From an uncultured bacterium (lineage in GTDB: Bacteria; Cloacimonadota; Cloacimonadia; Cloacimonadales; Cloacimonadaceae), in assembly GCA_938009275.1 (NCBI GenBank), contig CALLHY010000030.1, positions 11,776-75,775 of the forward strand: 64,000 bases of DNA, written 5' to 3'. The notes beneath the pieces were generated by a model that was not told the origin of the DNA, searched no databases, and was given only the letters and a program-made list of their open reading frames with translations. Made by a program: the position numbers and the translations under genes. Positions 29,371 to 49,110 of the stretch are shown here, in pieces; within the stretch, counting starts at the first letter, position 1, and the number at the start of each line of letters is the position of its first letter.

Positions 29371-29549
29371 ACACAAGGTGAAAGTGGGGATAAGGCTTTA
29401 TGTGGTGGTGATATACGATGGACTTGCTTTGGAAATGTCCAAGCGCCTATTTGGACGTAATTGGACTGATTGCTGACACTTTAGCTGCAAATTAGGGGGG
29501 CGTTTGGACAGGCTTTGGAAAGAGCAGTTGGGAATTTTATTCTAGCAAA

Positions 29550-30734: not shown

Positions 30735-30760
30735 GGTCACGGTTCTTAAAGGATATACAG

Positions 30761-31126
30761 ATGGATTGTAGAGTCGATTACATCTGGCTGCCCTTGGACA
30801 GGGTGGCCATGCTGCTGGGCAAGAACCTGAAGACGATCAGGCGTATGGTTGCAGCCGGGAAACTGATAGCGCTGAAGCATCAGATCCCCACCAAGAACGG
30901 AGCCACGATCAAAACCTTCATCCTGGCTACGGAAGAGATCATAGCAGCCGAGTATGAGCGGTATCGGGATAAGTTGAGAAGGCCAGAACTCTATTTCGAG
31001 GAAGAGATTAAACTGGGCGAATGTAGCTTCCCCAGTGTTTTCCTAGTCTACTATGAAGATGCTTTAATGGACACAAATGGTCCCACTAACACAACTATCG
31101 GAGGCAATGATGTATCCGCTCGATGA
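30761..31126 (+). CDS. Small HTH DNA-binding protein in the Ner position (excisionase/MerR-like HTH)
   Basis: I prefer the internal start MDCRVDYIWLPLDRVAMLLGKNLKTIRRMVAAGKLIAL. The upstream part of track ORF 30548-31126 is occupied by the operator repeats. Confidence 0.5.
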   Translation: MDCRVDYIWLPLDRVAMLLGKNLKTIRRMVAAGKLIALKHQIPTKNGATIKTFILATEEIIAAEYERYRDKLRRPELYFEEEIKLGECSFPSVFLVYYEDALMDTNGPTNTTIGGNDVSAR

Positions 31127-33656: not shown

Positions 33657-33665
33657 GGGGCGGCC

Positions 33666-34373: not shown

Positions 34374-34380
34374 GGTGAAC

Positions 34381-34950
34381 ATGGGAACCGAAGGAACGAC
34401 AAAACAAGATCATCCCACATGCTCAAGCCCACAACTGGCTGATAAAGCCGAGATACTGGTTCGCAACTTCGTGAGCCAGTATCGTCGGCCGTTCTCTGCA
34501 GAAACAATCGCAATCTATACTGGCATATCCACCAAACGGCTGAAGCCAATCATAGACCGACTTATCGCAGATCAGCAGATCAAGGTAGTATCCATTGATC
34601 CTGAGCAGATATATGTTAAGGCTAATCGCTATATGGGGATATACGAAAAGACGCATGATCATAATCGCTGGAATTTTGATCCAGACAAGGCGATGATCTT
34701 ACTGAAGGAAGTCGAAGCCAACAAACATAGGAACGTCCGAACCATTTCCAAGGCCATCGGTAAATCCAGGCAGTGGGTGTATGTGTATCTGGAAGCCCTT
34801 GCTTCGATCGGAGCAATTGAGAAAGTGGATGGTTGTTACAAGTTAATCACTAAGGACTTTGTGTGGGCTATTGGAACGAATATCAAAAAGGGGATACTGG
34901 CGAGCAAAAAAAGTGATTCGCTCATCTGCTTGCCACTCAATCAAGTATAG
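34381..34950 (+). CDS. Hypothetical protein with two winged-helix-like segments
   Basis: ATG at 34381 follows GAGGTG. The segments FSAETIAIYTGISTKRLKPIIDRLIADQQIKVV and RTISKAIGKSRQWVYVYLEALASIGAIEKV look like wHTH units. Confidence 0.45.
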   Translation: MGTEGTTKQDHPTCSSPQLADKAEILVRNFVSQYRRPFSAETIAIYTGISTKRLKPIIDRLIADQQIKVVSIDPEQIYVKANRYMGIYEKTHDHNRWNFDPDKAMILLKEVEANKHRNVRTISKAIGKSRQWVYVYLEALASIGAIEKVDGCYKLITKDFVWAIGTNIKKGILASKKSDSLICLPLNQV

Positions 34951-34985
34951 GTCGATCTTGCTTTTGTCTTGCGGAGATGCTGAAG

Positions 34986-35029
34986 ATTCTCATTGACAAA
35001 ATATGCTATTACTACACGTATGTCCATAA
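34986..35029 (+). promoter_or_regulatory. Conserved element GATT(T)TCTCATTGACA-N8-TA.TA upstream of cargo operon 1, followed by an ATGTCCA operator-like word
   Basis: gattctcattgacaaaatatgctattac (34986-35013) resembles gattttctcattgacagaagaagctaatat (44356-44385) upstream of cargo operon 2. An atgtcca word sits at 35021-35027. Confidence 0.35.
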
Positions 35030-35043
35030 GGAGTTATTGAAAG

Positions 35044-35712
35044 ATGATAGTATTAAGTTTATCAAGATTGAGTGTACTCGAAAGAGCTGCAAAGGCCTAT
35101 TCAGAAGGCGATCTTAGAGAGATTGAGATAAGTGCCCAACGCTTGTATCCAGATGGGAACTACCCCTTTGTTGTATCACCGGAGTTCCCCTTCCCCTTGC
35201 ATCTGTTCAGTCCGCGTTTAACGGCTATGCTCACTAAGGATGAAGATCAATTAGAGGCTATGGCTATGTGGAGCCGGATAACTGCTAGGGAGAACATTAT
35301 CCGCATGATCACAGCTACAGAACTTGAACGAACCGCAGCGGAAAGCCTTGGCAAGCAGTTTGAGGTTATCTATAAGAAAGATACTGATGATGTGAAAATG
35401 AAGCGGAAACAGATGATTGGCTATATGATAAAAGTGGTGATGGAGTGTTTTGGGTACCTGGTTTATAGCAGTCGTATGCTGGTAAACACCCGCAGAGGCG
35501 ATGAAAATGATGCAAAGCGGAAATCCAATTACTTCACAACTGCTACCAGATACGCACTGATGAGCAAAAGGGACAGAAATGCTCTCTTAAACTTGGTTGA
35601 TGAGAAACACAAGACATCGTTCCTTTCTATAACGGACAGCCTTCTGGAGCGTAATACGAAGTATCAATCCAAATTCAATATTGATGGCATGACGAACTGG
35701 GAATCACTGTAG
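35044..35712 (+). CDS. Hypothetical protein, first gene of the nine-gene cargo operon
   Basis: AAGGAG RBS, 222 aa, no motif I recognise. Confidence 0.55.
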   Translation: MIVLSLSRLSVLERAAKAYSEGDLREIEISAQRLYPDGNYPFVVSPEFPFPLHLFSPRLTAMLTKDEDQLEAMAMWSRITARENIIRMITATELERTAAESLGKQFEVIYKKDTDDVKMKRKQMIGYMIKVVMECFGYLVYSSRMLVNTRRGDENDAKRKSNYFTTATRYALMSKRDRNALLNLVDEKHKTSFLSITDSLLERNTKYQSKFNIDGMTNWESL

Positions 35713-35724
35713 GGAGAAGATAGG

Positions 35725-37542
35725 ATGAAGATCGAGGGTATTGAACCAGTAGAAATCCTGCACAAGCTGATTGAATTGAAACCAATGAAACATGATATGG
35801 AGGATGAGCAGGAACCTACTCAAAATGCCGTTACTACTGCTATTGATGCCTCCAATGCTAAGCTAATCAACAAGCATGTTCGCCAATTGATTAAACACCC
35901 ACTGTTTGAGAGTTACAGCCTTTCTCAACAGGATGTGATGGTAATCGCCGATCTCTGGCAATTTCATCTCGAACTGCCTGGCAGGGGCAGTAGCTGGGCA
36001 AGTATCTGCGCCAGTGCCAAGATTAGGCGTTATCAGGCGATTGCATGCCTGAAATACGTTACCGGGCTCTTAGAACGCAATATCATCTGCTTTGATGAGA
36101 GGATTGAGGGAAACTACTATCTTAATCCTATGATCCTGCAATCTGCCGAATACACTCTCAGCAAAGACCTCATCCTGAAGATATTGGGGAGGGATATAAG
36201 AGAAGACCTGGAACTGGTCATCAAAGATAACTGGCAGGATGATAAGGACTTCATGAGTGACCTGAGACTGATTTTTAATCTCTGCTACAATACCTTTGGC
36301 GAATTGGGCAGCAGGTCTCCTGTACTGGAGTATCCGATTCTATCGGCTTGCTTGCATCTTCTCAAAGACAGAATACTGGCTGCTCCGGATAGCCTGGGCA
36401 TAAAAGAACTCATACGCCAACATAGCCTAAGAGAAGACCAGCTGTTCATAATACTTGTGGTCATGTATCACCAACTATGTTGTGATGATAGAATAACTGA
36501 GGCAGATCTGGCTCTCTCTCTGGCCCCAGATCCCAGATTCAGGTGGCTGCAGCAACAACTCCTTAGCGATGATTCCGTCTTGATATCTTCCGGGCTTATC
36601 AGCAGAGAACAACGCTTCCATCGGGCCCAGGTGAACACTATAGGTATTCCGCATGAAACACTTAAAACGCTGGGGTATAGGTCTAAAACCTCTGAAGATG
36701 TGGTGATAAAGCTTACCCCATACTTTCAAAAGTGCCAGCCCAAGCAGACCCTGGGTGATGTGATTATTCCCGAATCAGATAAGCAACTTATTTCCCAGAT
36801 AATAACAAAGTGCAAGCCTTATAAACGCAGAGACCTGGAAAAATGGGGATTCAAGATCGAAAGTAATAAACAAGGTGCGGTACTGCTGTTGTACGGTGCT
36901 CCTGGAACCGGCAAGACTTTTACTGCCGGCGCCATAGCCAATGAACTTCACAGAGATTTGGTCACTCTCAACGTACCCGAACTAAGAAACAAATACTACG
37001 GAGAGACCGAGAAGCTGATCAAGAAAGCTTTCTGCGAGATGCGGGAGCTGGCTACTAAGGAAGAGAATGCTCCAGTGTTTCTGCTCAATGAAGCAGATCA
37101 ATTGATCCATGAAAGGATCTCCATCACTTCAACCTGCAGCACTATCGAGAACTCCATCCAGAGCATTATATTGGAGGAAATGGAAACTTTCCCGGGCATC
37201 CTGATCCTAACCACGAACCTTGAGACTAACCTCGATGAGGCCTTCTTTCGCCGCTTTGATCTCAAGTTCAGATTTGGACTACCGGATCTCGAAAGCAGAC
37301 GCAAGCTGTGGAGGATGTATCTCAGAAAGGAGATTCCAGGATCAGAGGATATCGATGTTGAGCCATTAGCGCAGAAATATCAGTTCAGCGGCGCACAGAT
37401 CGCACTGGTGGTGCAAAACGCCTGTATTGAAGCGATTGGTCGAACTGGAAAATCAAAACGGCTCTATCTTCAAGACCTACTTAAATATGCAGATCTTGAG
37501 CTACCTTGGGCAGACAAAGTAAATAAAAGTATAGGGTTTTAG
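35725..37542 (+). CDS. Classic-clade AAA+ ATPase with a roughly 370-aa N-terminal domain of unknown function
   Basis: Walker A GAPGTGKT, Walker B-like VFLLNEADQL (Asn in place of the usual Asp) and an SRH region LTTNLETNLDEAFFRRFD. Confidence 0.8.
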   Translation: MKIEGIEPVEILHKLIELKPMKHDMEDEQEPTQNAVTTAIDASNAKLINKHVRQLIKHPLFESYSLSQQDVMVIADLWQFHLELPGRGSSWASICASAKIRRYQAIACLKYVTGLLERNIICFDERIEGNYYLNPMILQSAEYTLSKDLILKILGRDIREDLELVIKDNWQDDKDFMSDLRLIFNLCYNTFGELGSRSPVLEYPILSACLHLLKDRILAAPDSLGIKELIRQHSLREDQLFIILVVMYHQLCCDDRITEADLALSLAPDPRFRWLQQQLLSDDSVLISSGLISREQRFHRAQVNTIGIPHETLKTLGYRSKTSEDVVIKLTPYFQKCQPKQTLGDVIIPESDKQLISQIITKCKPYKRRDLEKWGFKIESNKQGAVLLLYGAPGTGKTFTAGAIANELHRDLVTLNVPELRNKYYGETEKLIKKAFCEMRELATKEENAPVFLLNEADQLIHERISITSTCSTIENSIQSIILEEMETFPGILILTTNLETNLDEAFFRRFDLKFRFGLPDLESRRKLWRMYLRKEIPGSEDIDVEPLAQKYQFSGAQIALVVQNACIEAIGRTGKSKRLYLQDLLKYADLELPWADKVNKSIGF

Positions 37543-37550
37543 GGGGTATA

Positions 37551-38462
37551 ATGAAACCTGACAGAATGATAAATCGGAAAATGGTGGAAGCTGCCTTGAT
37601 TATGAAACAGATCAATGGCGAAATAATTCAAACCATCTCACATGACGTGGATTTGAAACACGTATACTGCGCCAACTATGCAAACAGCGTGATCGATGGC
37701 ATCTCTGCTGATATGTTCTGCTGCGACCTTATTCGTGGAGATGGAGGAGAACTGAGCAATTCATCAGGATCAGCACCAAAATTCAATTCAATTTCATCCT
37801 CAGCAGCACTCGCGGTTAGCACATTTGCGCCATGGAAGACCCACTTGGATGATCTAACAGTTGATCTCGGAACAAAGCAAATGGCAGGATTTGACAAACT
37901 GGAATTTGAACATATTGCCGAAACCGCCATCCCCAAAGCCAAGAAGCATCCTAATCTGGATGTTTGGCTGGAATCTGATGATGCAATCCTCGCTGTTGAG
38001 TGTAAGTTTTGCGAGTTCCTATCCGGGAGAACTGAGAAAGCAAGTCTGCATAGTGCCTACAAAAGGCTTGCAGCAACTATGGAGCAAAGTAATCCTTGGG
38101 TGAAGGCGATTGATTTTTTTACAAACGAGATGGGCGAATGTAAATACAGGTTCTTTGATGCTGTTCAAATCATTCGTCATTACTTTGGTGTTTTGAACTC
38201 CGGCCAGAAAGAGAAACATCTGCTCTATCTATACTGGCATCCGGCAAACGAGGATTGGATGGATATCCATCCCTTTGATTTGCACATGAAGGAACTGAAG
38301 GAGTTTTCGGGGCTTGTATCACAGGCAACGGATGTCAGTTTCCACTATATGAGTTTCAATGAGCTTTGGGAGCAATGGGCTGCCACTGATAAAAAAGTAG
38401 TTCAGAAGCATATCAAAGCGCTGAGACAGAAATACTCTGTAAATATAACTGAAAAACAATAA
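37551..38462 (+). CDS. Putative PD-(D/E)xK-fold nuclease, paralog 1
   Basis: LDVWLESDDAILAVECKF has D-x13-E-x-K spacing, followed by AVQIIRHY. Confidence 0.5.
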   Translation: MKPDRMINRKMVEAALIMKQINGEIIQTISHDVDLKHVYCANYANSVIDGISADMFCCDLIRGDGGELSNSSGSAPKFNSISSSAALAVSTFAPWKTHLDDLTVDLGTKQMAGFDKLEFEHIAETAIPKAKKHPNLDVWLESDDAILAVECKFCEFLSGRTEKASLHSAYKRLAATMEQSNPWVKAIDFFTNEMGECKYRFFDAVQIIRHYFGVLNSGQKEKHLLYLYWHPANEDWMDIHPFDLHMKELKEFSGLVSQATDVSFHYMSFNELWEQWAATDKKVVQKHIKALRQKYSVNITEKQ

Positions 38463-38480
38463 ACATAAGGAGATAAGGTC

Positions 38481-39398
38481 ATGGACATCAACGACATAAT
38501 CAATAGTTGCGGTAACCTTCTACAGCAGAATCAGAATGTAGCAGGACACATAAAAAAGTTTCGAAATAGAGCGCAAATTGATCACGATGAGACATTGCTG
38601 ACCTTAGTTTTAGCAAATGCCTTTGATGCAGATAAGGTCAATAACTATGCAAGTGTTAGCAGCTTACTTGGCCAAGTTATGTCACACAGAAATTTAAAAA
38701 CAAATGCCCCTGTATTTTCGAAAGATCACTCTGTGTATATAGAATACCAGACACCAAACTTGAAACACTACAACAAGTTTATTCGAGAAAACTGGTTTAA
38801 TGACTCCTTCCCAAAACACCCATACAAAGACAGAGTTAAAAGAATTGAAGACAGGTTAAAAAAAGGTGATAGACACGATATAGAGGGTAGCACACACTTC
38901 GATATGGTTATCACTTGTCCAAATAAGGACAAAGTGTATTTTGAATGTAAGTATCTCTCAGACATTGATTGCAAGACTACTTATGTTCCGTGTCGTGACC
39001 AGATATCCAGATGTTTGGATGCAGCATTATGTGATGCAACCGATAAATTAAAGAATCCAGAGGGACTGCAACATCTATGGTTTTTCTTGATAACACCTGA
39101 GATGTTTCGTATCAAAGAATTTGGTGGCTCACGTAATAACAACAGAATCTTCCATCCAGAAAGATCACGTTTATACGGCTACAAAATGAGGGATTTGGTA
39201 GATGAGAAGTACTTAGGCTATAACTTCCCACATTTACCCAAATCAATTAATCTGAAATTGCTTAGTGAACGTATTTTCTGGATGACGTGGGAAGAAGCAG
39301 CGCAATATGTTGTAAACAATATTCTCGTTGTACAGCATGCCGATTTAGTAAGGTCCATCTTTAATGATAGAAATCTGTGGAGAGGAAACAATGAATAA
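38481..39398 (+). CDS. Putative PD-(D/E)xK-fold nuclease, paralog 2
   Basis: FDMVITCPNKDKVYFECKY has the same D-x13-E-C-K spacing as the upstream gene, followed by RDQISRCL. Its length is similar (305 vs 303 aa). Confidence 0.5.
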   Translation: MDINDIINSCGNLLQQNQNVAGHIKKFRNRAQIDHDETLLTLVLANAFDADKVNNYASVSSLLGQVMSHRNLKTNAPVFSKDHSVYIEYQTPNLKHYNKFIRENWFNDSFPKHPYKDRVKRIEDRLKKGDRHDIEGSTHFDMVITCPNKDKVYFECKYLSDIDCKTTYVPCRDQISRCLDAALCDATDKLKNPEGLQHLWFFLITPEMFRIKEFGGSRNNNRIFHPERSRLYGYKMRDLVDEKYLGYNFPHLPKSINLKLLSERIFWMTWEEAAQYVVNNILVVQHADLVRSIFNDRNLWRGNNE

Positions 39399-40305
39399 CA
39401 CCAATCGAGTTGTTAGCAATAAGGAGTTTGACGAAAGAGTGAAAGCAGTTACAACTAAACATCTCCGTGCCATACACGAGAGACTGCATGACTTGACTGC
39501 TCTCAAACTTTCTTGGGAAGATAAAAGGAAAACGCCTAATCAGTCTTCTCCACACTCGAAAGCATCCCAAAGAATTCCAGTTGATATTGTAGTTTTTGAC
39601 ACTGCTACTTTGTTGAACAAGCTAGGTATTGACTATGAATTCGATTTTTGGTATGCGCTACTTCGAGGCTTTTCTGACCCAGTCTTTGATAGATTATCGA
39701 TAGACCATATGTGCGATGACAATGGAATTCCCGTGGCAGCTGAAGGTATATTATCAAAGATAAGAAGACTTTCTGATGAGTTTGAAAATAGTTATGATGA
39801 CTTGTCGGTGTTTTTAGGGAAGATACTTCGTGAAGAGTGGTTTGGAGAATCAAACAAGCATGTTGAAGACCTTCTGGGTGTATTTTTCTCCTGTGAAGAC
39901 ATCAGAATAGAGCTATACGCACAAGTAATAGCATTTTACTCAATTATCTTGGGCGTGTCGAGTGAATTGCTAGCTGTCGTAGTTCTAATCCATGAACAGG
40001 CTCATGCCTACACGATGGCAGGTTTTGATATTAGTGGCAACAGGGGTAGGTTATTATGCTCCTATTATGACAAATACGTTATCGAGGGATTAGCCCAGTA
40101 TTATACTGAAGCAGTCTGCGGTCAATTGGAGAATTCTATTACTGGAGTAAGTGACGCCTTCTTTAAGCTGCGCGCAGGGCAAAGAGAGCCTTACACAGAC
40201 TATCAACAATGGATGGGTAGTGGTGTTTTTGACCATGAAAGAGTAAGAAAAGAGCTGATGTTGTACAGAGGAAGTGTTTCAAGCTTAGAGCCTGCACTTT
40301 GGTGA
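39391..40305 (+). CDS. Putative gluzincin-type metallopeptidase (HExxH ... E)
   Basis: VLIHEQAHAY has a Glu 27 residues after the second His (IEGLAQYY). The ATG at 39391 overlaps the upstream stop (ATGAATAA). Confidence 0.45.
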   Translation: MNNTNRVVSNKEFDERVKAVTTKHLRAIHERLHDLTALKLSWEDKRKTPNQSSPHSKASQRIPVDIVVFDTATLLNKLGIDYEFDFWYALLRGFSDPVFDRLSIDHMCDDNGIPVAAEGILSKIRRLSDEFENSYDDLSVFLGKILREEWFGESNKHVEDLLGVFFSCEDIRIELYAQVIAFYSIILGVSSELLAVVVLIHEQAHAYTMAGFDISGNRGRLLCSYYDKYVIEGLAQYYTEAVCGQLENSITGVSDAFFKLRAGQREPYTDYQQWMGSGVFDHERVRKELMLYRGSVSSLEPALW

Positions 40306-40339
40306 ATATAACAAACATCCGACTTGAAAAGGGGGTTGC

Positions 40340-41149
40340 GTGCTTTCAAAAATTGATCAGTTATTGCTGGATGCTGGAACTGGTAATGCAGACGCTCAAA
40401 ACCAGTTAGGAGATGCTTACTTCGATGGAATCGGAATTGAGCAAGACCGCGCTAAAGCATTCGAATGGTATCTCCGAGCTGCTGAACAGGGTCATGGAAA
40501 GGCTCAATATAACGTAGCCTATGCTTATGCCAATGGAATTGGAACTCAGAAGAACACATCTGAAGCTATCAAATGGTACGGCAAATCAGCAGATCAGGGT
40601 GTGGCTCTGGCTCAGTATGTCCTGGCGAAGTTACTAATCGATGGGCAGTACGTAGAACAAGACTTAGGCCAAGGTCTGGATTTGCTGCAAAATGCCTCAG
40701 ATCAAGGACTAGATCTTGCGCAATATGATCTGGGGACTATCTTCCTAGATGGCAAGATCGTCGTGCCCGATGTAAGCAAGGGTATCAGGATACTAACTCT
40801 TGCAGCCGAGCAAGGGAATAAAGACGCTCAATTCAATCTTGGCTTGGCCTATTCCAGTCTACCCGAACCAAACTGTCCCAAAGCCGAGAAATACCTTCGA
40901 GAAGCATCATTCAATGGCCATTTTAAGGCGATGTTCGAGTTATCCAGACTATACACGATCAACATGAGAGACTACAAGCAGGGCCTATTGTGGACAATTG
41001 TAGCCTTAGAATACTGTGAAAAACAGGATGAACAGAGGATTTGTCGGGTCAAGCATAACTTGGAAAACAAGCTGAATACGGCCGAGTGTGAAGCAGTTAT
41101 ATTTCAGGCAAGGGACATCATAACCAGATTGGACGCAAGGCTTAGTTGA
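40340..41149 (+). CDS. Sel1-like repeat (SLR/TPR-family) protein
   Basis: At least five repeats of the A.QxxLGxxYxxGxGVxQDxxKAxxWYxKAAxQG type. GTG start. Confidence 0.85.
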   Translation: MLSKIDQLLLDAGTGNADAQNQLGDAYFDGIGIEQDRAKAFEWYLRAAEQGHGKAQYNVAYAYANGIGTQKNTSEAIKWYGKSADQGVALAQYVLAKLLIDGQYVEQDLGQGLDLLQNASDQGLDLAQYDLGTIFLDGKIVVPDVSKGIRILTLAAEQGNKDAQFNLGLAYSSLPEPNCPKAEKYLREASFNGHFKAMFELSRLYTINMRDYKQGLLWTIVALEYCEKQDEQRICRVKHNLENKLNTAECEAVIFQARDIITRLDARLS

Positions 41150-41178
41150 CCTGGTCAAGAGTCGATTAAGGAGGATAG

Positions 41179-42546
41179 ATGAGTTTTGTTCATTTACACG
41201 TACACAGCGAATATAGCTGGTTGGATGGAGCCTGCATCATCGATGATCTGGTGCAGAGAGCGGTGCAGTATAAGATGCCGGCAGTGGCGATCACCGATCG
41301 CAATAGTGTGGCGGGGGCGTTCCGCCTCTGGCAAGCTTGCGTAAAAGCTGGCATCAAACCGATCATTGGGCTGGAGATAGCAGTCCTAAACAATCCCGGA
41401 GATGGCAGAGCCTTTTCCGTTATCCTGCTGGCCAGGAATGGCTCCGGTTACGAAAATCTCTGCCATCTGGTCTCTCTGGCTTATGAGCAGGATGCTCTAG
41501 CCCCAAAGATCACTAAAAACCAATTGGCAGAGCATGCTCAAGATCTGATCTGCCTATCCTTCAGCGTAGTGGGAGAGCTTTGCACCCTGTTGTTGGAGGG
41601 CAGAGATGTCGAGGCAAGGCAGGTTTCGGATTGGTATCATGAGGTCTTTGGCGAAGATTACTTCTACGAAATCCAGAACCACGAGCTGCCCTCTGAAGCG
41701 GTTGCCATGAATAAAGTTCTGAATCTGGCTTACCAGACCAAGATACCCGTGGTTCTCACCAATGACTGTCATTGCATGGATCGTAGTGACTCTATCTCGA
41801 TCGATGCCCTGAACTGCATCAGAAAGGGCTTGGATTTCGCTCATTCGGAAGCCAAACGCTTTGCCTGCAATGAGTACTATCTCAAATCGCCCAAAGAGAT
41901 GAAAGCGCTCATTGGTTTCCCACCTCAGCTTATCAAGAACACTCTGGATATAGCCAATAAAATCGATGTAACGGATGGCTATATACCTGTTTCTGAGAGC
42001 GATCTATCCGTATCCAAGGTGGTGGGATTACTAAGCAGCTACTCATCCACCTTGAAGATCAAATTCAAGCCCAGCAGCAGGCATATTTCTTTATCTTTGA
42101 TGGATCATCAGTCCGCGGATGTATTGGAGCATCTCCGCCAGCAACTGCCAGATTTTGAGTTCATTCACTTTACTGAGTATGATCCCTGGACGCCAAGAAG
42201 TATCTATGCCGCTGTCCTGAATGCAATGAAGGTCCCGGAAGAGAAGATCAGGGATCTTTGTGGTTTGATCCCTGCTGAGGCAAAGACCCTCCGAGAAGCC
42301 GTCTTGATCGATAGCGATTTCTCCTGTCTATCCAGTGAGGACTATGTTTGTTCATTGGCTGCAGAGATAGGCGATACCTTGATTAGTACTTACAAAGAAG
42401 AAAGACCGGCGAGACACAGTTATGCCTTGATCCCTAAGGATATGCCAGTTCCGATAGTCCGAGATATGTATGGACAGCAAAGATGCCAGTACGACTTGTG
42501 CATGATTACCCAGGCTGGCATAATCAGCCTGGAGTTTCAAATATGA
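41179..42546 (+). CDS. Stand-alone DnaE-type PHP (polymerase/histidinol-phosphatase) domain protein with an unrelated C-terminal half
   Basis: MSFVHLHVHSEYS, AITDRNSVAG, GLEI, FYEIQNH and VLTNDCHC parallel the N-terminal PHP region of Pol III alpha. No palm or fingers sequence follows. Strong AAGGAGG RBS. Confidence 0.75.
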   Translation: MSFVHLHVHSEYSWLDGACIIDDLVQRAVQYKMPAVAITDRNSVAGAFRLWQACVKAGIKPIIGLEIAVLNNPGDGRAFSVILLARNGSGYENLCHLVSLAYEQDALAPKITKNQLAEHAQDLICLSFSVVGELCTLLLEGRDVEARQVSDWYHEVFGEDYFYEIQNHELPSEAVAMNKVLNLAYQTKIPVVLTNDCHCMDRSDSISIDALNCIRKGLDFAHSEAKRFACNEYYLKSPKEMKALIGFPPQLIKNTLDIANKIDVTDGYIPVSESDLSVSKVVGLLSSYSSTLKIKFKPSSRHISLSLMDHQSADVLEHLRQQLPDFEFIHFTEYDPWTPRSIYAAVLNAMKVPEEKIRDLCGLIPAEAKTLREAVLIDSDFSCLSSEDYVCSLAAEIGDTLISTYKEERPARHSYALIPKDMPVPIVRDMYGQQRCQYDLCMITQAGIISLEFQI

Positions 42547-42580
42547 GATTAGTCAAAATCAATCATATTGAGGAGATAAA

Positions 42581-43465
42581 ATGAATAGGGAGACTAAGCC
42601 AAGGAAACTGAAGGACAGCTCCAAAACGAGAGTGATGCCTTTCTTTACTTACCTATTCGAACATTATGGCATTGGACCCAGTTGGATTCCCACCTTACTT
42701 GGGATGGCTACAAAGAATCAGGATCTCGCTAACATGATGTCTGCGATGAATTGCAGTATCAGCACCGACAAAAGAAAACAGACGACAACCAAGCAGGTTG
42801 ATAGCCAACAGAATAGGAAGAATTGCTTTGAATACTCCATAGCACCTTCTGTTGCTTTTCTCAAATGGCTTATCTTGAATCCGGGAAAATTGACATGGCC
42901 AAAAACCAAGGGGGTTGAGAAGGTTTTCAATAACTTAAGAACACAAAAAATGAGAACGTCCCTGATTCATCCTGCCAACGCCAATGAAAGGGAGGTTGTA
43001 CAGCAGTATGCTCTGAATCAGCTTATGCTGATTAGTAATAGAGGAATCGTAGTTAAAACCTCTAAGGACAAAGCTGAAGCTTGGGTTAAGTTTGAAGGAT
43101 ACACAAGGTTGGATTGTTTGCTTGAGACTGCGGATTATGTCCTGGCTATTGAAGGTAAAAGAAATGAGGGTGTATCAAGATCGATTCATTGGTATCCTCA
43201 ACGTAACCAAATTGTTAGAAACCTGGAAGTTCTCCGAGAGTATGCTGGGACTAAACAATACGCATTAATCCTTATGAACAAAGATGGAACAGATCCTATT
43301 AAGGATGCTGATTTTGTATTGAGTCTACCCCATATGAGCAGAAAGGCAGTTCAAGAAATCTCACGTCACTACTTAGGGAGCATATCGTGGAGAGAAGCAT
43401 GTGAAGTACTCAATGTACCATACTCTAATCTTCCAGATACGATCTGTGATGCGATTAAACAATAA
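42581..43465 (+). CDS. Putative PD-(D/E)xK-fold nuclease, paralog 3
   Basis: RLDCLLETADYVLAIEGKRNEG has D-x12-E-x-K spacing, followed by RNQIVRNL. Confidence 0.45.
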   Translation: MNRETKPRKLKDSSKTRVMPFFTYLFEHYGIGPSWIPTLLGMATKNQDLANMMSAMNCSISTDKRKQTTTKQVDSQQNRKNCFEYSIAPSVAFLKWLILNPGKLTWPKTKGVEKVFNNLRTQKMRTSLIHPANANEREVVQQYALNQLMLISNRGIVVKTSKDKAEAWVKFEGYTRLDCLLETADYVLAIEGKRNEGVSRSIHWYPQRNQIVRNLEVLREYAGTKQYALILMNKDGTDPIKDADFVLSLPHMSRKAVQEISRHYLGSISWREACEVLNVPYSNLPDTICDAIKQ

Positions 43466-43506
43466 AAGCGAGTTACCCATCGGTAATATGAAACTATGAG
43501 GAGACT

Positions 43507-44229
43507 ATGATACCAATCACATTCTTGTCCCACGCTTGCGATATTCTCGCAGACACAAATGCAGGGTTGCCCGGTTCAAAGATTGCAGAATACTGCGCAG
43601 CATACGCTGTAGACTACAACGTTGATATACCTTATGGCACCTATCCTTTTTTCGATAGTCCAAACAAGCGAACGGCACTCCCTAAGAATCTCCAGGCTTT
43701 CAAACCAGAGCAGCAGTTCGCAATCATCAAGGAGTTGTGTGAATTAGAAAAGTGGTCTGACGAATCCAAGATCAAAGACCTGAAAATCAAACTAATATCA
43801 CGATTTGGCAGTTTGTTTCAGGGTTCTGAGTGCATCAACGAGATACTGATTGAAGAAACCAAGCACTGGCTGGAACCTTATACAAAGTCAAAGCAAAACT
43901 ACTTATATGCCTTGGACAAATTCAATAATGGCGTGTTTCTTAGGAATTCTCTTGATGACCTAAGGCTGTCTCTTGAATTGCTACTGCAAGAAATCTTTGG
44001 AAATTCTAAGTCATTGGAGAACCAAATCAATGAAGTTGGGTCATTGGTTATCTCGATGGGAGGATCGAAAGAATTCGCCAATATGTTTCAGAAACTCGTG
44101 GAGTACTATACCAAGTATCAAAACACCTATATCAAGCATGACGACAGGGTCATGGAGCTTGAGATTGAGTTTATTTTTGAGCTCACATCGTCTTTCATGA
44201 AGCATTTTGTTAGGCTATCTGATCGCTAA
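43507..44229 (+). CDS. Hypothetical protein, last gene of the nine-gene operon
   Basis: GAGGAG RBS, 240 aa, helical by eye, no motif recognised. Confidence 0.5.
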   Translation: MIPITFLSHACDILADTNAGLPGSKIAEYCAAYAVDYNVDIPYGTYPFFDSPNKRTALPKNLQAFKPEQQFAIIKELCELEKWSDESKIKDLKIKLISRFGSLFQGSECINEILIEETKHWLEPYTKSKQNYLYALDKFNNGVFLRNSLDDLRLSLELLLQEIFGNSKSLENQINEVGSLVISMGGSKEFANMFQKLVEYYTKYQNTYIKHDDRVMELEIEFIFELTSSFMKHFVRLSDR

Positions 44230-44355
44230 AAGCATAGTTTGGTAATGTATTCATCATCGGAGAATCGCTGGTCTGGATCAGAAACCAATGTCTAATACAA
44301 ATCAAGGTTCAATTAGAATCAAACACGAATGATCCTTTCTGCTAGGGTGGAAAAG

Positions 44356-44386
44356 GATTTTCTCATTGACAGAAGAAGCTAATATG
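44356..44386 (+). promoter_or_regulatory. Second copy of the TCTCATTGACA-N8-TA.TA element, upstream of cargo operon 2
   Basis: See 34986-35029. TTGACA is at 44366-44371. Confidence 0.35.
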
Positions 44387-44408
44387 ATTGTTTGACTTTT
44401 GGCGTGTA

Positions 44409-44686
44409 ATGGCCGAAATTAATGATGCGACTAAACGCTTGAAAGAGGCAACTGATCAGACCTTGGGAGTGTTAGGCGGATCATCTAGTTCTTTTTTTAA
44501 GGAATCAGGATGATGAGATTAGAAGACATTAAGGCAGGAGCCCTGATTCAGGGCATGGAACCAGGGGAAGTAGTGCGCATTGTTACCAGTGAGCCTATCA
44601 GGATTTTGTTTCCATGCAATTCTTCAAATCAGCACGCTTACAGCCTTATCCAAGTACTTGCAGATATGTTGGGAACAATGATATAG
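44409..44686 (+). other. Two short overlapping ORFs (34 aa and 58 aa, ATGA junction); either small leader genes or the remnant of a decayed gene
   Basis: My translations are 44409-44513 [34 protein letters not shown] and 44510-44686 [58 protein letters not shown]. Both fall below the ORF-track length cutoff. Confidence 0.25.
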
Positions 44687-44702
44687 ACGGAGGCGACAGA
44701 GA

Positions 44703-47700
44703 GTGAAGAACCTAGCCAAGAGCATCTTAAACTACTACTCTACCTACAACGAGACCAGATTCCGCTTTGATACCAGGATAAACTTTGCCTGGAGCAATGA
44801 CGACAAGACGCTGGATATTCCCTTTTTTCCTGAAGTCGCCCAAAACCTGTTAAATGAGATACAGGAGGGTAAAAGGATACATCTTTCAATCCATCCTGAA
44901 GAGCACAGCATTTCTTTGGATAGAAGGGCATTTATTGATGAGGTTTCCAGGGAAGCCAAAGATCTGTTTCCCAGATTACCAGAGACCTTTGACCCGGCAA
45001 ATCAAGAAACCAACAATGCTCTCAGGCAGTTCAATCTGGATCTTCGCTCCAAAGTCCAGGCTATACAATACAACATGCAAGCCCAGAAGATTGCCGAACT
45101 GCAAAATCTGCATGGGACATCGCATCAGCCCAAAACTAGCTTCAACCCTAGCATCAATGAGCAACTTATCTATGACAGCATCCAACGTGAGATAAACGTC
45201 ACGACTGATATTGAGCACTTTAAAGAGGCAGTCCTGCAGATCATCAAGAATTCCGAGTATACACTGGTCCTGTTTGACTTGTTTGCCCAGTTGAGGGATT
45301 TGGATAGGAAGATTGGTCTGGACAGAGTCTATCTCTTTGCCCACCAAATCAGTAATGAAGTTGGCAGCTATCCCCTCTACTTTGTTGAGTTGAGCATTGA
45401 CAACCAATTTGCTTCCATTAGTCTGGTGCAGACCCAGAAGATCATCTACTTGAATACACCAGCTATCAACGCCAACAAGCCCCAAGATGTACTGACATTA
45501 CCACGTGCTGAAGAAATGAGCAACGCACTGGCTACCATACGTCAGTTGAATGGCTTTCTAAATACCATCTACCACGGCCCCCAGGATTTTCTGATGCAGG
45601 ACAAATTCCCCAGCTTGATTTTGCCCAACTATCCAGAGATCTCCTCCCGGGTGGGATTTCAGATCGTAAAACAGGACTCAAACAACCTCCTGGATTACTC
45701 AGAATTACTAGCGCTATCTGACTCTTCAGTAGGGCAGAAATTCCTCAATTTAATAGACCAATACATCAATTCCAATGTTCCCTCTACGCAAAAAGAAGTA
45801 GAACAGCAATACTGGGATAAATACCCTCCCCGGGATGTCTGGAACATTGTCGATGACAATCCCTTCCCCTTAAACAAGTCTCAGAAAAAGATCCTTTTGG
45901 CTGCCCAAAATGAGAAAAACAAGATTATCGTTGTGGAAGGTCCTCCCGGTACCGGGAAATCGCATACTATCTCTGCGCTTGTCTATATGGCTTCAGGCTT
46001 GGGTAAAAGCGTTTTGATCACATCACACAAGAAGCAAGCGCTGGATGTCATCGAAGGTTATCTGACTGCTAAGTTTAGAAGCTTGAATCAAACAGGCAAG
46101 CCAGCCATCATCAGAATGGACAAGGCAAGCGATGGAATCGCCAATCCACCCGCTCAGACTCTGGCTAATCCAGCTTTCAACGGAGCCGCCAATAGGGTTC
46201 AGAGAATTAATATTACTGCAACAGAGCAAAAACTACAAGAGACTCTGGATAGGATCAAAGAGCAGAACCAAGTCTATTGGAAGCAGTTCAATTCGGCTTT
46301 GGTTTCGAATGATCTCATCTCCGAATACCTCGATCTGGAAAAGGATCTACAACTCCCGGAGAGCGAGATTTTTATATGTAACTTCACAGAGAAGGACGCT
46401 TCCGATCTGCTCGGATTCTTCAACCAGTTGCAGGAGATTGATTTCCCCCTCAGTTATCAGCACTTGAAGGAGTATTTCCAGAAAAGGGAAAGGTACGAGG
46501 CCTATAGAAAAGCACTGGAGCATCTAAACAAAGAAAAGACCATACCGACCTCAGCCGCTCCTGAAAGCGTAGATTTATCTTCACTGGAGGGCTTTAGCCA
46601 GATAGTTAAAGCATTAGCCATATCAATAAAAGGCGGTTTCAGTGTTTTCCAAGATGATTTGAAACCCATCAAGTTGCGCTGGGGGGATAAGTATCTTCCC
46701 CGGGCAGATGAGTTGGAATCGCTATCGGCTCTGCTAAATGATATCGAAAAGCACAGCGGATTACTGGCTGGCAAGGAAAGTAAAAAGAAACGCGAAGAGG
46801 CGGAACATGCCCTTGAACAGGATCACCCGGAGTTCTGTGACCAGGTCTTCAAGCTTAGAAAGGTCAAGGAAGCCAGAAAATACCTGGATGAAATCAAAAA
46901 GAAACTGGCTCAAAACTCAAGCGACTCCCAATTCACAGATGCTTATCTGCTGGCTGAGCACAAAAGAGTCAGCTTTGAAAGTATTAAGAGCAACCTTCAG
47001 CAGCTCGGGCATATAGATCATGCTGAGCTTATCCAAACCATAGCCGATCAAACCGGAAAAAAGAAAGATGACCTCACATTGCAGGACCTTGTAACTGGAG
47101 TTGACCTATTAGGATCTCAGAACGAGACTGGCCTGGCAAACAGCCTGATTGAAGAGCTGGCAGCCATGTTGGAAACCGATGTCAGCGCTCTTCCCCTGAT
47201 TAATACCAGATTAAAAAGAGCGCATGAGGTAGTAAGCAAGATTCAGGATACTGACTGGGATTGGTTTGATAAACTATATGATACATACCCAGCCTGGCTG
47301 GAACATCTGGGCATCGGATTGCACGATCTGAGCAACTGGAAGCAGATCCCCGCCGAAATGTTCGAGAAGATGCTCAGGTTGATCCAACTGCAGAATGAAC
47401 TGGCTGCCTTATCGGGAGCAAGTAAACCTGCACAACAGGACATTCAGGAATTCTATCGCCTTGTCCATCAGAGATATGAATATCAAAACGATGAACGCTA
47501 TTCCGACCTGATGAATTTCACAGGAGATATCAGCCGGATGCAGACCTCGATCCTCACTAAAAAACGCCTCTCCTCAGAACAAACCAGTGTGATGAACCAG
47601 CATCTAACCTGCGTGATCGCCCAACCCAGCCTGATCACGGATTACTTTCCCATGGAGGAGGATATCTTTGATTACCTGATCATCGATGAAGCTTCCCAGG

Positions 47701-49109: not shown

Positions 49110-49110
49110 A

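What the first reader, a model, noticed from the sequence alone, without database searches (positions are those of the whole stretch)
35044..44229. Nine-gene cargo operon that matches no defence system I know
Nine co-directional genes have gaps of 41 nt or less, including one 8-nt overlap, and most have good RBSs. In order they encode:
- an unknown 222-aa protein
- a classic-clade AAA+ ATPase with a ~370-aa novel N-domain
- two adjacent ~304-aa paralogs with D-x13-E-C-K nuclease-type motifs
- an HExxH...E protein
- a Sel1-repeat protein
- a stand-alone DnaE-type PHP domain
- a third D-x12-E-x-K protein
- an unknown 240-aa protein

The operon sits inside a mobile element next to a type III R-M operon, which is a defence-island context. 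It has no methyltransferase, reverse transcriptase, STAND NTPase or cyclase, so it does not fit R-M, BREX, DISARM, CBASS, retron, Gabija, Septu, Shedu or Zorya layouts as I remember them. Several candidate nucleic-acid hydrolases (three nucleases and one PHP) sit beside an ATPase, a peptidase and a repeat scaffold. That suggests a regulated multi-effector system.
Basis: partly seen in the sequence, partly recalled or inferred. Interest (0 to 1): 0.85.

Follow-up and report, generated by a model that had tools for sequence, protein, structure and literature searches.

The report
Transposon-borne ATPase, dead polymerase, swappable nucleases
The nine genes are real but are not one fixed unit: three conserved genes (an unknown protein, a protein-remodelling ATPase and a dead fragment of the replicative DNA polymerase) bracket slots where different DNA-cutting enzymes are swapped in and out, which looks like an undescribed phage-defence system carried by a jumping gene in Cloacimonadota bacteria.

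Summary
In detail: nine co-directional ORFs (35044-44229) with gaps of -8 to 41 nt and Shine-Dalgarno-like sites.

In 30 non-redundant related loci (all Cloacimonadota) the conserved part is a three-gene core:
- g1, an unknown fold
- g2, a classic-clade AAA+ ATPase
- g7, a remnant of DnaE

All three occur together in 27 of 30 loci. At least one PD-(D/E)xK-motif nuclease cassette occurs in 27 of 30, or 29 of 30 once family c101 is counted. There are at least nine cassette families. Loci whose g2 is 96-98.5% identical carry different families, giving 22 architectures in 38 loci.

Other parts:
- g5 (HExxH) and g6 (Sel1) form an optional pair, in 9 and 8 of 30 loci.
- g9 matches the PADLOC single-gene candidate PDC-S32 and is probably a separate unit.
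- g3 and g4 are not detectable paralogs.
- g7 is not a plain PHP domain. It is PHP plus thumb and half the palm of DnaE, has no polymerase aspartates, and has lost 3 of 9 PHP metal ligands.

The operon is the first cargo of a 31,071-bp Mu-like transposon (29340-60410; terminal inverted repeats; 5-bp duplication CCGTT) filled with defence-type genes. No named system matches the core.

Best reading: an undescribed ATPase-controlled multi-nuclease defence system. The mechanism is inferred, not shown.

The parts
34981..35043 (+). Upstream leader of the module. DNA homology to other copies of the system restarts here. Contains the motif TTCTCATTGACA..GCTA.TA and an AAGGAG ribosome-binding site.
   Evidence: blastn against L027, L028, L030 and L008 restarts at 34981/34982 at 83-87% identity, although the preceding wHTH gene matches at about 67-70% over part of its length at most. 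The same motif recurs at 44360-44384.
35044..35712 (+). g1: core gene 1, 222 aa, unknown fold. Its central domain (about residues 67-172) belongs to a widespread, unannotated family of small proteins.
   Evidence: No Pfam, NCBIfam, PHROG or PADLOC hit. AF2 pLDDT 87.7, pTM 0.87. No PDB or BFVD fold match. Profile search: 9 hits below 1e-30, the full-length ones being of this type, and about 300 further hits to small proteins. It is the first gene of the system in all 75 loci where a g1 ORF was called.
35725..37542 (+). g2: core gene 2, 605 aa. A classic-clade AAA+ ATPase with an N-terminal region of about 370 aa, which the model shows as two helix-plus-hairpin units that look like winged helices.
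   Evidence: PF00004 E 2.9e-25. Foldseek matches to Vps4, Rix7, Rpt, p97 and FtsH. Walker A GAPGTGKT, KYYGE pore-loop-like motif, invariant N455-E456 at the Walker B position, R509/R510. Directly follows g1 in 28 of 30 loci.
37551..38462 (+). g3: variable cassette, PD-(D/E)xK nuclease of Pfam family REase-ARP.
   Evidence: PF22558, 75.2 bits against a cut-off of 27. D...ECK is invariant in 13 homologs. Present in some loci and replaced by other families in others.
38481..39398 (+). g4: variable cassette, 305 aa with a D-x13-E-C-K motif. A singleton.
   Evidence: No homolog among the 82 loci clustered. No family hit. Unrelated to g3.
39391..40305 (+). g5: optional module, candidate zincin metallopeptidase (HExxH...E).
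   Evidence: Invariant H201, E202, H205 and E232 in 9 homologs. Only sub-threshold hits to SprT-like, M91, M61 and M48. No PDB sequence match. Present in 9 of 30 loci. g6 follows it directly wherever the sequence downstream of g5 is intact.
40340..41149 (+). g6: optional module, Sel1-repeat protein.
   Evidence: PF08238 E 1.2e-40, four repeats. Present in 8 of 30 loci.
41179..42546 (+). g7: core gene 3, 455 aa. A DnaE remnant: PHP domain plus thumb and part of the palm. The polymerase site is dead.
   Evidence: A family profile aligns to Taq Pol III alpha 6-285 and 465-620. About 180 aa of palm are missing and the catalytic aspartates are not kept. Forms of 662-684 aa in other loci add a fingers segment. 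TDH is replaced by TDR (R41 nearly invariant), hHL by S, and SGC by SFS; the other PHP ligands are kept. Present in 29 of 30 loci.
42581..43465 (+). g8: variable cassette, 294 aa with a D-x12-E-G-K motif.
   Evidence: D..ET...EGKR is invariant in 7 homologs. Found after g7 or between g2 and g7 in other loci. No family hit.
43507..44229 (+). g9: PADLOC candidate PDC-S32. Probably a separate single-gene unit attached to the operon.
   Evidence: PDLC04998 E 8.5e-80, covering 6-232 of 237 model positions. Present in only 4 of 30 loci, always last.
29340..60410 (.). The 31,071-bp Mu-like transposon that carries the operon as its first cargo.
   Evidence: Terminal inverted repeats TATAAACTGACACCCAAAGCTGCAAGTTGTG and (right end, reverse complement) TGCAAACTGACAACGAAAACTGCATATTGTG. 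Identical 5-bp flanks CCGTT at 29335-29339 and 60411-60415. Homology to other copies of the element starts at 29339/29340.
29550..34950 (.). Transposition and regulation module: CI/S24 repressor (29550-30305, minus strand), 192-aa ORF, MuA-type transposase (31077-33656), MuB/TniB-like ATPase (33666-34373), wHTH protein (34309-34950).
   Evidence: Pfam Peptidase_S24, rve plus Mu-transpos_C, AAA_22/TniB, TrmB/HTH_29. The same module sits directly upstream of g1 in 10 of 42 non-redundant loci.

Best explanation
**What it is.** A candidate anti-phage or anti-mobile-DNA system found so far only in Cloacimonadota. It has a fixed three-gene core and exchangeable effectors.

**Core.**
- g1: a 222-aa protein of unknown fold.
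- g2: a classic-clade AAA+ ATPase whose N-terminal region looks like two winged helices in the model.
- g7: a polymerase-dead remnant of the replicative polymerase DnaE, made of PHP, thumb and half the palm.

**Effectors and extras.**
- One to three PD-(D/E)xK nuclease cassettes from at least nine mostly unrelated families sit in two slots, between g2 and g7 and after g7.
- A zincin-like protein plus a Sel1-repeat protein (g5, g6) is an optional add-on.
- g9 (PDC-S32) is a neighbouring independent unit.

**Inferred mechanism (not shown).** The DnaE remnant and/or g1 act as the platform or sensor that recognises foreign DNA or a phage activity directed at the replisome. The AAA+ hexamer uses ATP to remodel the complex. 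This licenses the nuclease cassettes to cut DNA. Rapid cassette replacement would reflect an arms race with nuclease inhibitors or DNA modifications.

**What is shown.** Gene order conservation, cassette turnover, domain identities, loss of the polymerase site, and the mobile-element and defence-island context.
For: **Core conservation.** Of 30 non-redundant loci with at least 7 kb downstream of g1, g2 is adjacent in 28, g7 is present in 29 and both in 27. At least one nuclease-motif cassette is present in 27. Two of the other three loci carry c101, which is REase-ARP at E 7.6e-37.

**Operonic integration.** 165 non-redundant junctions have a median gap of 12 nt, and 83% are 60 nt or less.

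**Cassette turnover.** There are 22 architectures in 38 complete loci. Pairs with g2 96-98.5% identical carry different families.

**Cassettes look like nucleases.** The D...(E)xK residues are invariant within each cassette family that has homologs. g3 and c101 are Pfam REase-ARP. c14 is DUF6946, described as a putative restriction endonuclease in PMC10584680.

**Defence context.**
- In the window: type III Mod/Res, SIR2_2, an SF1 helicase, a DEAD+MZB+RNase_T protein and PDC-S32.
- Elsewhere: type I R-M plus GmrSD, Card1, BrxB and GmrSD-HNH, CRISPR arrays directly after g7 in L016 and L069, SNF2+NOV_C and PLD+SNF2 helicases, and PADLOC hits to ZacC, DrmA/D, BrxH, HmaA and PDC-S05 among neighbours.

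**Accessory and mosaic.**
- Only 17 species-representative genomes carry it.
- One MAG carries two divergent copies (L012 and L022).
- Modules recombine independently of each other.

**A link beyond the phylum.** In L091, two small g1-like genes directly precede a REase-ARP gene.
Against: - There is no experimental evidence of defence.
- The system is confined to one mostly uncultured phylum.
- A classic-clade AAA+ with a KYYGE pore loop normally acts on proteins, not DNA, so how it couples to nucleases is unknown.
- The Walker B position reads N-E rather than D-E (invariant), so ATPase competence is unproven.
- g7's PHP lacks 3 of 9 canonical metal ligands, and its role is a guess.
- g1 has no recognisable fold.
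- The Mu transposition module lies directly upstream in 10 of 42 loci, including a very divergent copy (L077). This also fits a role in the element's own biology.
- Defence-neighbour enrichment was not tested against a background.
Confidence: 0.55

Rival explanations
1. **Hotspot model.** g1, g2 and g7 form a conserved module with some other function. The two slots beside g7 are recombination hotspots. Independent, self-sufficient single-gene nucleases (type IV-like restriction enzymes or selfish nuclease genes) land there. This would resemble the defence hotspots between conserved genes of P2/P4-like elements.
For: Very fast cassette turnover between nearly identical flanks. The cassette families are mutually unrelated. 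DUF6946 and REase-ARP also occur outside this system. g9, a candidate independent system, has also been appended at the operon's end.
Against: Apart from the g5-g6 pair and small unassigned ORFs (for example the 96-aa c32), the slots hold only PD-(D/E)xK-motif proteins. They never hold toxin-antitoxin, methyltransferase, Abi or other system types. The cassettes are always co-oriented and tightly spaced. A core without any cassette is rare, 1-3 of 30 loci. The g1-like plus REase-ARP pairing recurs in an unrelated genome.
Confidence: 0.2
2. **Transposon accessory or maintenance module.** The core serves the Mu-like element itself. The AAA+ could remodel the transpososome, as ClpX does for phage Mu. 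The DnaE remnant could recruit or mimic the replisome for replicative transposition. Alternatively the module could act as an addiction system that stabilises the element.
For: The module is the first cargo directly after MuA-MuB-wHTH in 10 of 42 non-redundant loci, including L077, where g1, g2 and g7 are only 37-42% identical to the window's. From established knowledge, Mu needs an AAA+ unfoldase and Pol III for the switch from transposition to replication.
Against: 32 of 42 loci with upstream sequence lack the transposition genes next to g1. Module and transposase identities are uncoupled: MuA 95% with g1 52% in L058, against MuA 62% with g1 82% in L027. g7 lacks the beta-clamp-binding and C-terminal regions through which E. 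coli DnaE contacts the clamp and tau (established knowledge; extent of g7). Hypervariable nucleases are not expected of a transposition helper.
Confidence: 0.1
3. **Housekeeping DNA repair or replication factor set.** A PHP phosphoesterase, nucleases and an ATPase that happen to lie in an island.
For: g7 derives from DnaE. A 35%-identical stand-alone paralog of g2 sits in a conserved chromosomal context. Two small g1-like genes lie near dnaE or holC in other bacteria.
Against: Patchy distribution, with only 17 species representatives. Mobile-element carriage, mosaicism and cassette turnover. The polymerase site is dead and the PHP site is degraded. Two divergent copies occur in one MAG.
Confidence: 0.05
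4. **Chance juxtaposition.** Nine unrelated genes that happen to be adjacent.
For: g4 is unique to this window and g9 is an independent candidate system.
Against: The order g1-g2-[cassettes]-g7-[cassettes] recurs in 27 of 30 loci from different contexts.
Confidence: 0.02

Closest known systems
McrBC and other NTP-dependent type IV restriction systems
   Same: An AAA+ NTPase is encoded next to a PD-(D/E)xK nuclease. There is no methyltransferase. The setting is a defence island.
   Different: g2 is a classic-clade AAA (PF00004; Vps4/p97/FtsH-like fold), not a McrB-type GTPase (AAA_5 only at E 0.056). There are two further core genes, g1 and the DnaE remnant. The nucleases are several and interchangeable.
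IetAS (Gao et al. 2020; name and composition from my own knowledge)
   Same: The best PADLOC and NCBIfam defence hit of g2 is IetA/IteA, a defence-associated AAA+ ATPase.
   Different: The match covers only the AAA domain. NCBIfam IteA scores 84 bits against a cut-off of 510. No S8 protease (IetS) is present. The partner genes are entirely different.
Ppl (PHP domain fused to an OLD/ABC-type ATPase; Rousset et al. 2022; from my own knowledge)
   Same: A PHP domain and an ATPase appear together in a mobile-element defence hotspot.
   Different: g7 has no PADLOC hit. Its PHP is of DnaE type, attached to dead palm and thumb, on a separate polypeptide from a different ATPase class.
Defence cargo of Tn7-like transposons (Benler et al. 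2021, PMC8649781) and variable defence hotspots of P2/P4 elements
   Same: A DDE transposon with an AAA+ regulator carries a long cargo made of defence systems. Modules are exchanged rapidly between conserved flanks.
   Different: This element is Mu-type (rve plus Mu-transpos_C, MuB-like ATPase, 5-bp duplication), not Tn7-like. The turnover happens inside one operon and, apart from the g5-g6 pair and small unassigned ORFs, involves only nuclease-fold genes.
DnaE (C-family replicative polymerase alpha subunit)
   Same: g7 aligns to Taq Pol III alpha 6-285 (PHP) and 465-620 (palm/thumb). Long forms add part of the fingers.
   Different: About 180 aa of palm are deleted. The catalytic aspartates, the beta-binding region and the OB region are absent. 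Three PHP ligands are replaced.
Pfam REase-ARP (PF22558) and DUF6946 (PF22187) nuclease families
   Same: g3 and c101 are members of REase-ARP, and c14 is a member of DUF6946.
   Different: These are domain families, not described systems. I could not find what 'ARP' stands for. One outside locus pairs REase-ARP with small g1-like proteins.

Membership tests
IetAS defence system | IetA-family ATPase scoring at family level over its whole length | tested here: not met
   NCBIfam IteA_antiphage scores 84.2 bits against a cut-off of 510. The PADLOC IetA match covers only g2 residues 336-574.
IetAS defence system | Adjacent IetS subtilisin-like serine protease | tested here: not met
   None of the nine proteins has a Peptidase_S8 or any IetS hit.
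McrBC-type restriction | McrB-type (AAA_5) GTPase motor | tested here: not met
   The best Pfam hit is PF00004 (E 2.9e-25), while AAA_5 reaches only E 0.056. The fold matches Vps4, p97 and FtsH.
McrBC-type restriction | Partner PD-(D/E)xK nuclease | tested here: met
   g3 is REase-ARP at 75.2 bits. The D..ExK residues are invariant in the cassette families that have homologs.
Ppl | PHP domain fused to an OLD/ABC-type ATPase in one protein | tested here: not met
   g7 has no PADLOC hit and no ATPase domain.
R-M types I-III, BREX, DISARM | A DNA methyltransferase within the operon | tested here: not met
   None of the nine proteins has a methyltransferase domain. The N6_N4 methyltransferase at 49111-51318 belongs to the separate type III operon.
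PADLOC candidate PDC-S32 (applies to g9 only) | Full-length match to the PDC-S32 model | tested here: met
   E 8.5e-80, protein residues 8-237 against model positions 6-232 of 237.
Pfam REase-ARP PF22558 (applies to g3 only) | Score above the gathering cut-off | tested here: met
   75.2 bits against a cut-off of 27.
C-family DNA polymerase (DnaE) (applies to g7) | PHP domain of DnaE type | tested here: met
   PF02811 E 1.3e-43. NCBIfam PRK05673 E 3.8e-71 over residues 1-265. The family profile aligns to Taq alpha 6-285.
C-family DNA polymerase (DnaE) (applies to g7) | Complete palm with the three catalytic aspartates | tested here: not met
   The profile aligns only to Taq 465-620 and about 180 aa of palm are missing. 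The positions of the Asp triad are not Asp in the window protein or the family consensus.
C-family DNA polymerase (DnaE) (applies to g7) | Fingers, beta-binding and OB domains | tested here: not met
   g7 ends at the palm boundary at residue 455. Only the 662-684-aa relatives keep part of the fingers.
Active PHP exonuclease/phosphoesterase (applies to g7) | Nine canonical metal ligands | tested here: inconclusive
   HxH, D16, E66, H168, D196 and H198 are kept. TDH is replaced by TDR, hHL by S and SGC by SFS. Activity cannot be judged from sequence.
Classic-clade AAA+ ATPase (applies to g2) | Walker A, Walker B, pore loop and arginine fingers | tested here: inconclusive
   GAPGTGKT, KYYGE and R509/R510 are present. 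The Walker B position reads N455-E456 (invariant) instead of D-E.
Mu-type DDE transposon (the carrier element) | rve/Mu-transpos_C transposase plus MuB/TniB-like ATPase | tested here: met
   Pfam hits.
Mu-type DDE transposon (the carrier element) | Terminal inverted repeats and a 5-bp target-site duplication | tested here: met
   The ends at 29340 and 60410 are inverted-repeat related, and CCGTT is present on both flanks.
Transposable phage (Mu-like virus) | Head, tail and lysis genes within the element | tested here: not met
   No ORF of 150 aa or more between 29340 and 60410 has a phage structural-protein match. The Pfam scans cover all of them, and PHROGs was run only on the nine operon proteins and the wHTH protein. 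The matches found are defence-type or transposition domains; g1, g4, g5, g8, g9 and the 192-aa ORF at 30548-31126 have no Pfam match at all.

The most novel reading that the evidence does not exclude
**Replisome-mimic guard.** The core would be built from co-opted replisome parts. g7 is a catalytically dead DnaE fragment. The g1 domain family was seen next to dnaE or holC in two of the nine contexts examined outside the phylum. Together they would act as a decoy for phage factors that hijack or inhibit the host Pol III. When the decoy is engaged, the AAA+ unfoldase would remodel it and release or activate the exchangeable nucleases. This would be a new sensing principle: immune surveillance of replisome takeover through a pseudo-polymerase.
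Probability: 0.1. Interest if true: 0.9.

Novelty: new variant of a known kind. Interest (0 to 1): 0.6.

Why it matters
If it is a defence system, it adds an unusual design with three notable features:
- A protein-remodelling AAA+ ATPase and a dead fragment of the replicative polymerase serve as the invariant chassis.
- Nuclease effectors are swapped on a very short evolutionary timescale.
- The whole unit is spread by a Mu-type transposon whose 31-kb cargo consists of defence-type genes.

It would give a function to four things:
- A DnaE-derived pseudoenzyme.
- The unannotated g1-like small-protein family, which is widespread in mobile elements.
- The REase-ARP and DUF6946 nuclease families.
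- Part of the immune repertoire of Cloacimonadota, which are abundant in anaerobic digesters.

The cassette slots also offer a natural experiment on how effectors are exchanged within a defence operon.

Tried and rejected
1. **g3 and g4 as paralogs.** Rejected. BLASTP E 1.3 and hhalign probability 0.3%. Only c3~c22 (97%) and g3~c101 (77%) are related at profile level.
2. **A named defence system.** PADLOC, NCBIfam, PHROGs and Pfam give nothing for g1, g4, g5 or g8, and only domain-level hits for g2 and g7.
3. **g1 fold.** The model is confident, but there is no match in the PDB or BFVD.
4. **g2 N-terminal domain.** A profile against PDB sequences gives nothing significant. The full-model Foldseek search is dominated by the AAA domain.
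5. **g5.** The profile has no PDB hit, and only sub-threshold zincin families match.
6. **Meaning of 'ARP' in REase-ARP, and any paper describing the system.** Nine literature searches and a term search inside the 2020 eLife conflict-systems paper found nothing relevant.
7. **Full-length relatives of g7 in phages or of g2 in plasmids.** Only the PHP or AAA domains match.
8. **Transposable-prophage idea.** Rejected. The element ends at 60410 and no phage structural genes were found.
9. **Neighbour scan by pooled PADLOC search.** It returned only per-family counts dominated by helicase cross-hits. It is qualitative support, not an enrichment test.
10. **Small g1-like proteins as a consistent Pol III neighbour.** Seen in only 2 of the 9 outside contexts. 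Kept as a lead only.

Full report
**1. The observation**

The nine + strand ORFs are present at the stated coordinates. With g5 starting at the ATG at 39391, the start that its homologs support, the inter-gene distances are 12, 8, 18, -8, 34, 29, 34 and 41 nt. Each start has a GGAG-type site upstream. The block is separated by 93 nt from the gene upstream and by 473 nt from the gene downstream.

Domain calls:

| Gene | Result |
|---|---|
| g1 | No hit in any library |
| g2 | AAA PF00004 at residues 387-518. PADLOC IetA and NCBIfam IteA match only over the AAA domain (84 bits against a cut-off of 510) |
| g3 | Pfam REase-ARP, 75 bits |
| g4 | Nothing |
| g5 | Nothing |
| g6 | Sel1 repeats |
| g7 | PHP, with DnaE-type similarity over residues 1-265 |
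| g8 | Nothing |
| g9 | PADLOC PDC-S32, E 8.5e-80 |

- g3 and g4 share no detectable similarity (BLASTP E 1.3; hhalign probability 0.3%).
- g9 is a known candidate family.
- g7 is more than a PHP domain (section 4).

**2. Source and relatives**

Close homologs of g1, g2 and g7 that carry an organism name are almost all assigned to Cloacimonadota (Cloacimonas, Syntrophosphaera). The few exceptions are one partial PHP protein labelled Marinimicrobia and, among distant g2 relatives, one from Methanolobus.

- A scan of 185,579 species-representative genomes with a g1 profile found 17 loci. All are Cloacimonadota MAGs apart from one contig binned as Pirellulaceae, which may be a mis-binning.
- IMG/VR gave one locus.
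- JGI metagenomes gave 56 loci.

I called ORFs in all loci, clustered them by BLASTP, and mapped the window's genes onto them.

**3. What is conserved and what is not**

Among the 30 non-redundant loci with at least 7 kb downstream of g1:

| Feature | Loci (of 30) |
|---|---|
| g2 directly follows g1 | 28 |
| g7 present | 29 |
| g2 and g7 both present | 27 |
| At least one nuclease-motif cassette | 27 |
| g5 | 9 |
| g6 | 8 |
| g9 | 4 |

Two of the three loci without a counted cassette carry c101, which is REase-ARP at E 7.6e-37. The simplest loci are g1-g2-g7 plus one cassette (for example L020).

*The cassette slots.* Between g2 and g7, and after g7, lie genes from the following families:
- g3 and c101 (REase-ARP)
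- c3 (related to c22 at 97% hhalign probability)
- c5
- c14, which is Pfam DUF6946 and was described as a putative restriction endonuclease in PMC10584680
- c22
- c24
- g8
- g4, which occurs only in this window

Each family with homologs keeps an invariant D...(E)xK core. Apart from c3~c22 and g3~c101, the families are not related at profile level.

*Turnover.* 38 complete loci show 22 architectures. Loci whose g2 proteins are 96-98.5% identical carry different cassette families. The cassettes are nevertheless tightly integrated into the operon. Across 165 non-redundant junctions the median gap is 12 nt, and 83% are 60 nt or less.

*Conclusion for the window.* The nine genes resolve into four parts: core (g1, g2, g7), three cassettes (g3, g4, g8), the optional g5-g6 pair, and an appended PDC-S32 gene (g9).

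**4. The core proteins**

*g7.* A family profile aligns to Thermus aquaticus Pol III alpha at residues 6-285 (PHP) and 465-620 (end of palm, thumb, second palm segment).
- About 180 residues of palm that would hold the first two catalytic aspartates are missing, and the third position is not Asp.
- The protein ends exactly at the palm-fingers boundary.
- Relatives of 662-684 aa keep part of the fingers, with recognisable but diverged DnaE motifs. The family therefore looks like a progressively reduced, polymerase-dead DnaE.
- In the PHP domain, HxH, D16, E66, H168, D196 and H198 are conserved. Three canonical ligands are replaced family-wide: TDH by TDR, hHL by S, and SGC by SFS. Hydrolase activity is therefore uncertain.

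*g2.* The AlphaFold model (pLDDT 82) matches Vps4, Rix7, proteasomal Rpt subunits, p97 and FtsH.
- It has Walker A GAPGTGKT, a KYYGE pore-loop motif and R509/R510.
- The Walker B position is an invariant N-E.
- The N-terminal region folds as two helix-bundle-plus-hairpin units that look like winged helices. This reading rests on the secondary-structure pattern alone.
- A profile of the N-terminal region finds nothing in PDB sequences.
- A 35%-identical paralog stands alone in a conserved chromosomal context without g1 or g7.

*g1.* The model is confident (pLDDT 87.7, pTM 0.87) but has no fold match in the PDB or BFVD.
- A profile search of 1.84 billion representatives finds only nine proteins below 1e-30, the full-length ones being of this type.
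- It also finds about 300 small proteins of about 110-130 aa that match g1 residues ~67-172.
- The ten of these small proteins that I scanned have no Pfam, NCBIfam or PHROG annotation.
- They occur in Alphaproteobacteria, Shewanella, Psychromonas, Fusobacteria, Spirochaetota and prophages.
- They are often next to integrases or in islands.
- In L091, two such genes directly precede a REase-ARP gene, which matches my g3 HMM at E 1.8e-19. The g1-domain-plus-REase-ARP pairing therefore exists outside Cloacimonadota. This small protein may be the 'ARP' of the Pfam name, but I could not verify what the acronym means.

**5. Context**

*The carrier element.* The operon is cargo of a Mu-type transposon.
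- Homology to other copies of the element begins at 29339/29340.
- The two ends are inverted-repeat related.
- Both flanks carry CCGTT (29335-29339 and 60411-60415), a 5-bp target duplication.
- The element spans 29340-60410 (31,071 bp).

*Its gene content.*
- Transposition and regulation: a CI/S24 repressor, a MuA-type transposase, a MuB/TniB-like ATPase and a wHTH protein.
- Cargo, in order: this operon, an SF1 helicase of 1468 aa, type III Mod/Res, a SIR2_2 protein, and a 1592-aa DEAD+MZB+RNase_T protein.
- No phage structural genes were found.

*The same association elsewhere.* The transposition module lies directly upstream of g1 in 10 of 42 non-redundant loci. Identities are uncoupled, so the modules recombine independently:

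| Locus compared with window | MuA | g1 | g2 | g7 |
|---|---|---|---|---|
| L058 | 95% | 52% | 87% | 79% |
| L027 | 62% | 82% | 86% | 77% |
| L077 | 56% | 37% | 40% | 42% |

*Other neighbourhoods.* Elsewhere the system sits next to:
- type I R-M plus GmrSD
- Card1, BrxB and GmrSD-HNH
- CRISPR arrays (L016 and L069)
- SNF2+NOV_C and PLD+SNF2 helicases
- neighbours with PADLOC hits to ZacC, DrmA/D, BrxH, HmaA and PDC-S05

One MAG carries two divergent copies (L012 and L022).

**6. Interpretation**

The evidence supports a single recurrent module with a fixed chassis and exchangeable PD-(D/E)xK effectors. It is accessory, mosaic, carried by mobile elements and embedded among defence genes. I therefore favour an undescribed defence system.

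*Proposed mechanism, inferred only.*
- g7 and/or g1 provide the recognition platform.
- The AAA+ ATPase remodels the complex.
- This licenses the nucleases.
- The g5-g6 pair adds an optional regulatory or proteolytic layer.

*Main rivals.*
- A hotspot model, in which independent nucleases land between conserved genes. Against it, apart from the g5-g6 pair and small unassigned ORFs the slots hold only nuclease-fold genes, spacing is tight, and cores without a cassette are rare.
- A role in the transposon's own biology. Against it, most loci lack the transposase next to g1, and module and transposase identities are uncoupled.

**7. Comparison with known systems and novelty**

The nearest functional analogues are McrBC-like AAA-plus-nuclease restriction, IetAS (an AAA+ defence ATPase) and Ppl (PHP plus ATPase). 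The defining features of each were tested and are not met (see the membership table). The carrier resembles the defence-cargo Tn7-like transposons (PMC8649781) but is Mu-type.

I found no paper describing the core. Against phages, g7 matches over its PHP domain only; against plasmids, g2 matches over its AAA domain only.

I rate it a new variant of a known kind, namely ATPase-plus-nuclease defence-island systems. Its unusual features are the DnaE-derived pseudoenzyme and the intra-operon effector shuffling. Function and mechanism remain untested, which limits the score.

Noticed in passing
window 29340-60410: A complete 31,071-bp Mu-type transposon with imperfect terminal inverted repeats and a 5-bp target duplication (CCGTT). 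It carries only defence-type cargo and no phage structural genes.
   Followed up: yes
window 34987-35011 and 44360-44384: A shared 25-nt motif (TTCTCATTGACA..GCTA.TA) lies upstream of g1 and again upstream of the next operon (SF1 helicase plus type III R-M). It may be a common operator or promoter element of the transposon's cargo.
   Followed up: partly
window 44703-49109: A 1468-aa SF1 helicase (AAA_11/AAA_12, Upf1/DNA2-like) lies immediately upstream of the type III Mod/Res genes. It may be a separate defence gene or part of the R-M operon.
   Followed up: no
window 54213-60117: A SIR2_2 protein (350 aa) is followed by a 1592-aa fusion of a DEAD helicase, an MrfA Zn-binding (MZB) domain and an RNase_T/DEDDh exonuclease. 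This is another likely defence pair at the right end of the element.
   Followed up: no
window 61407-62861: A TIR/SEFIR-domain protein (484 aa) with unannotated neighbours lies just outside the transposon's right end. The element therefore inserted next to another defence-type gene.
   Followed up: no
window 28929-29111: An array with 8-nt periodicity (TCGACNNC/CCAGCAC-like units) lies between the ornithine carbamoyltransferase gene and the transposon's left end.
   Followed up: no
window 2944-10535: Two tandem gingipain-like C25 peptidases of about 1250 aa, each with a T9SS C-terminal sorting domain.
   Followed up: no
L091 5597-7472; L090 2952-4808; L092, L094; L085; L087: The central domain of g1 defines a widespread, unannotated small-protein family of about 110-130 aa. 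Contexts seen: two tandem copies directly before a REase-ARP gene (L091); a copy directly before a DnaB_C/AAA_25 ATPase beside an integrase (L090); integrase-proximal copies in viral contigs (L092, L094); and copies near dnaE (L085) or holC (L087). Some copies are followed by a small partner protein with an RFGxTG..PNYQI motif.
   Followed up: partly
L016 ~5800-6700; L069 ~5800-8000: CRISPR arrays lie directly downstream of g7. They appeared in my ORF calls as repeated 'FSLTPNSYRVI' translations.
   Followed up: no
L004-L006 (gene at 10001-11941 in L004 and L005; 6898-8838 in L006): A 646-aa paralog of g2 (35% identity, same N-terminal region) stands alone in a conserved chromosomal context next to an RNase_H_2-like gene. 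It has no g1 or g7 nearby.
   Followed up: partly
L021 5478-12061: A variant locus in which g1-g2 is followed not by g7 and nucleases but by a DUF676 esterase-SHOCT protein and an RCK-domain K+ channel-like protein. These may be alternative effectors.
   Followed up: no
L025 700-7804 (Methanolobus): A distant g2-like AAA+ (34% identity) in an archaeon is followed by a 277-aa protein, a Sel1-like protein and a BRCT+FGE-sulfatase protein. The AAA-plus-Sel1 association therefore extends beyond Cloacimonadota.
   Followed up: no
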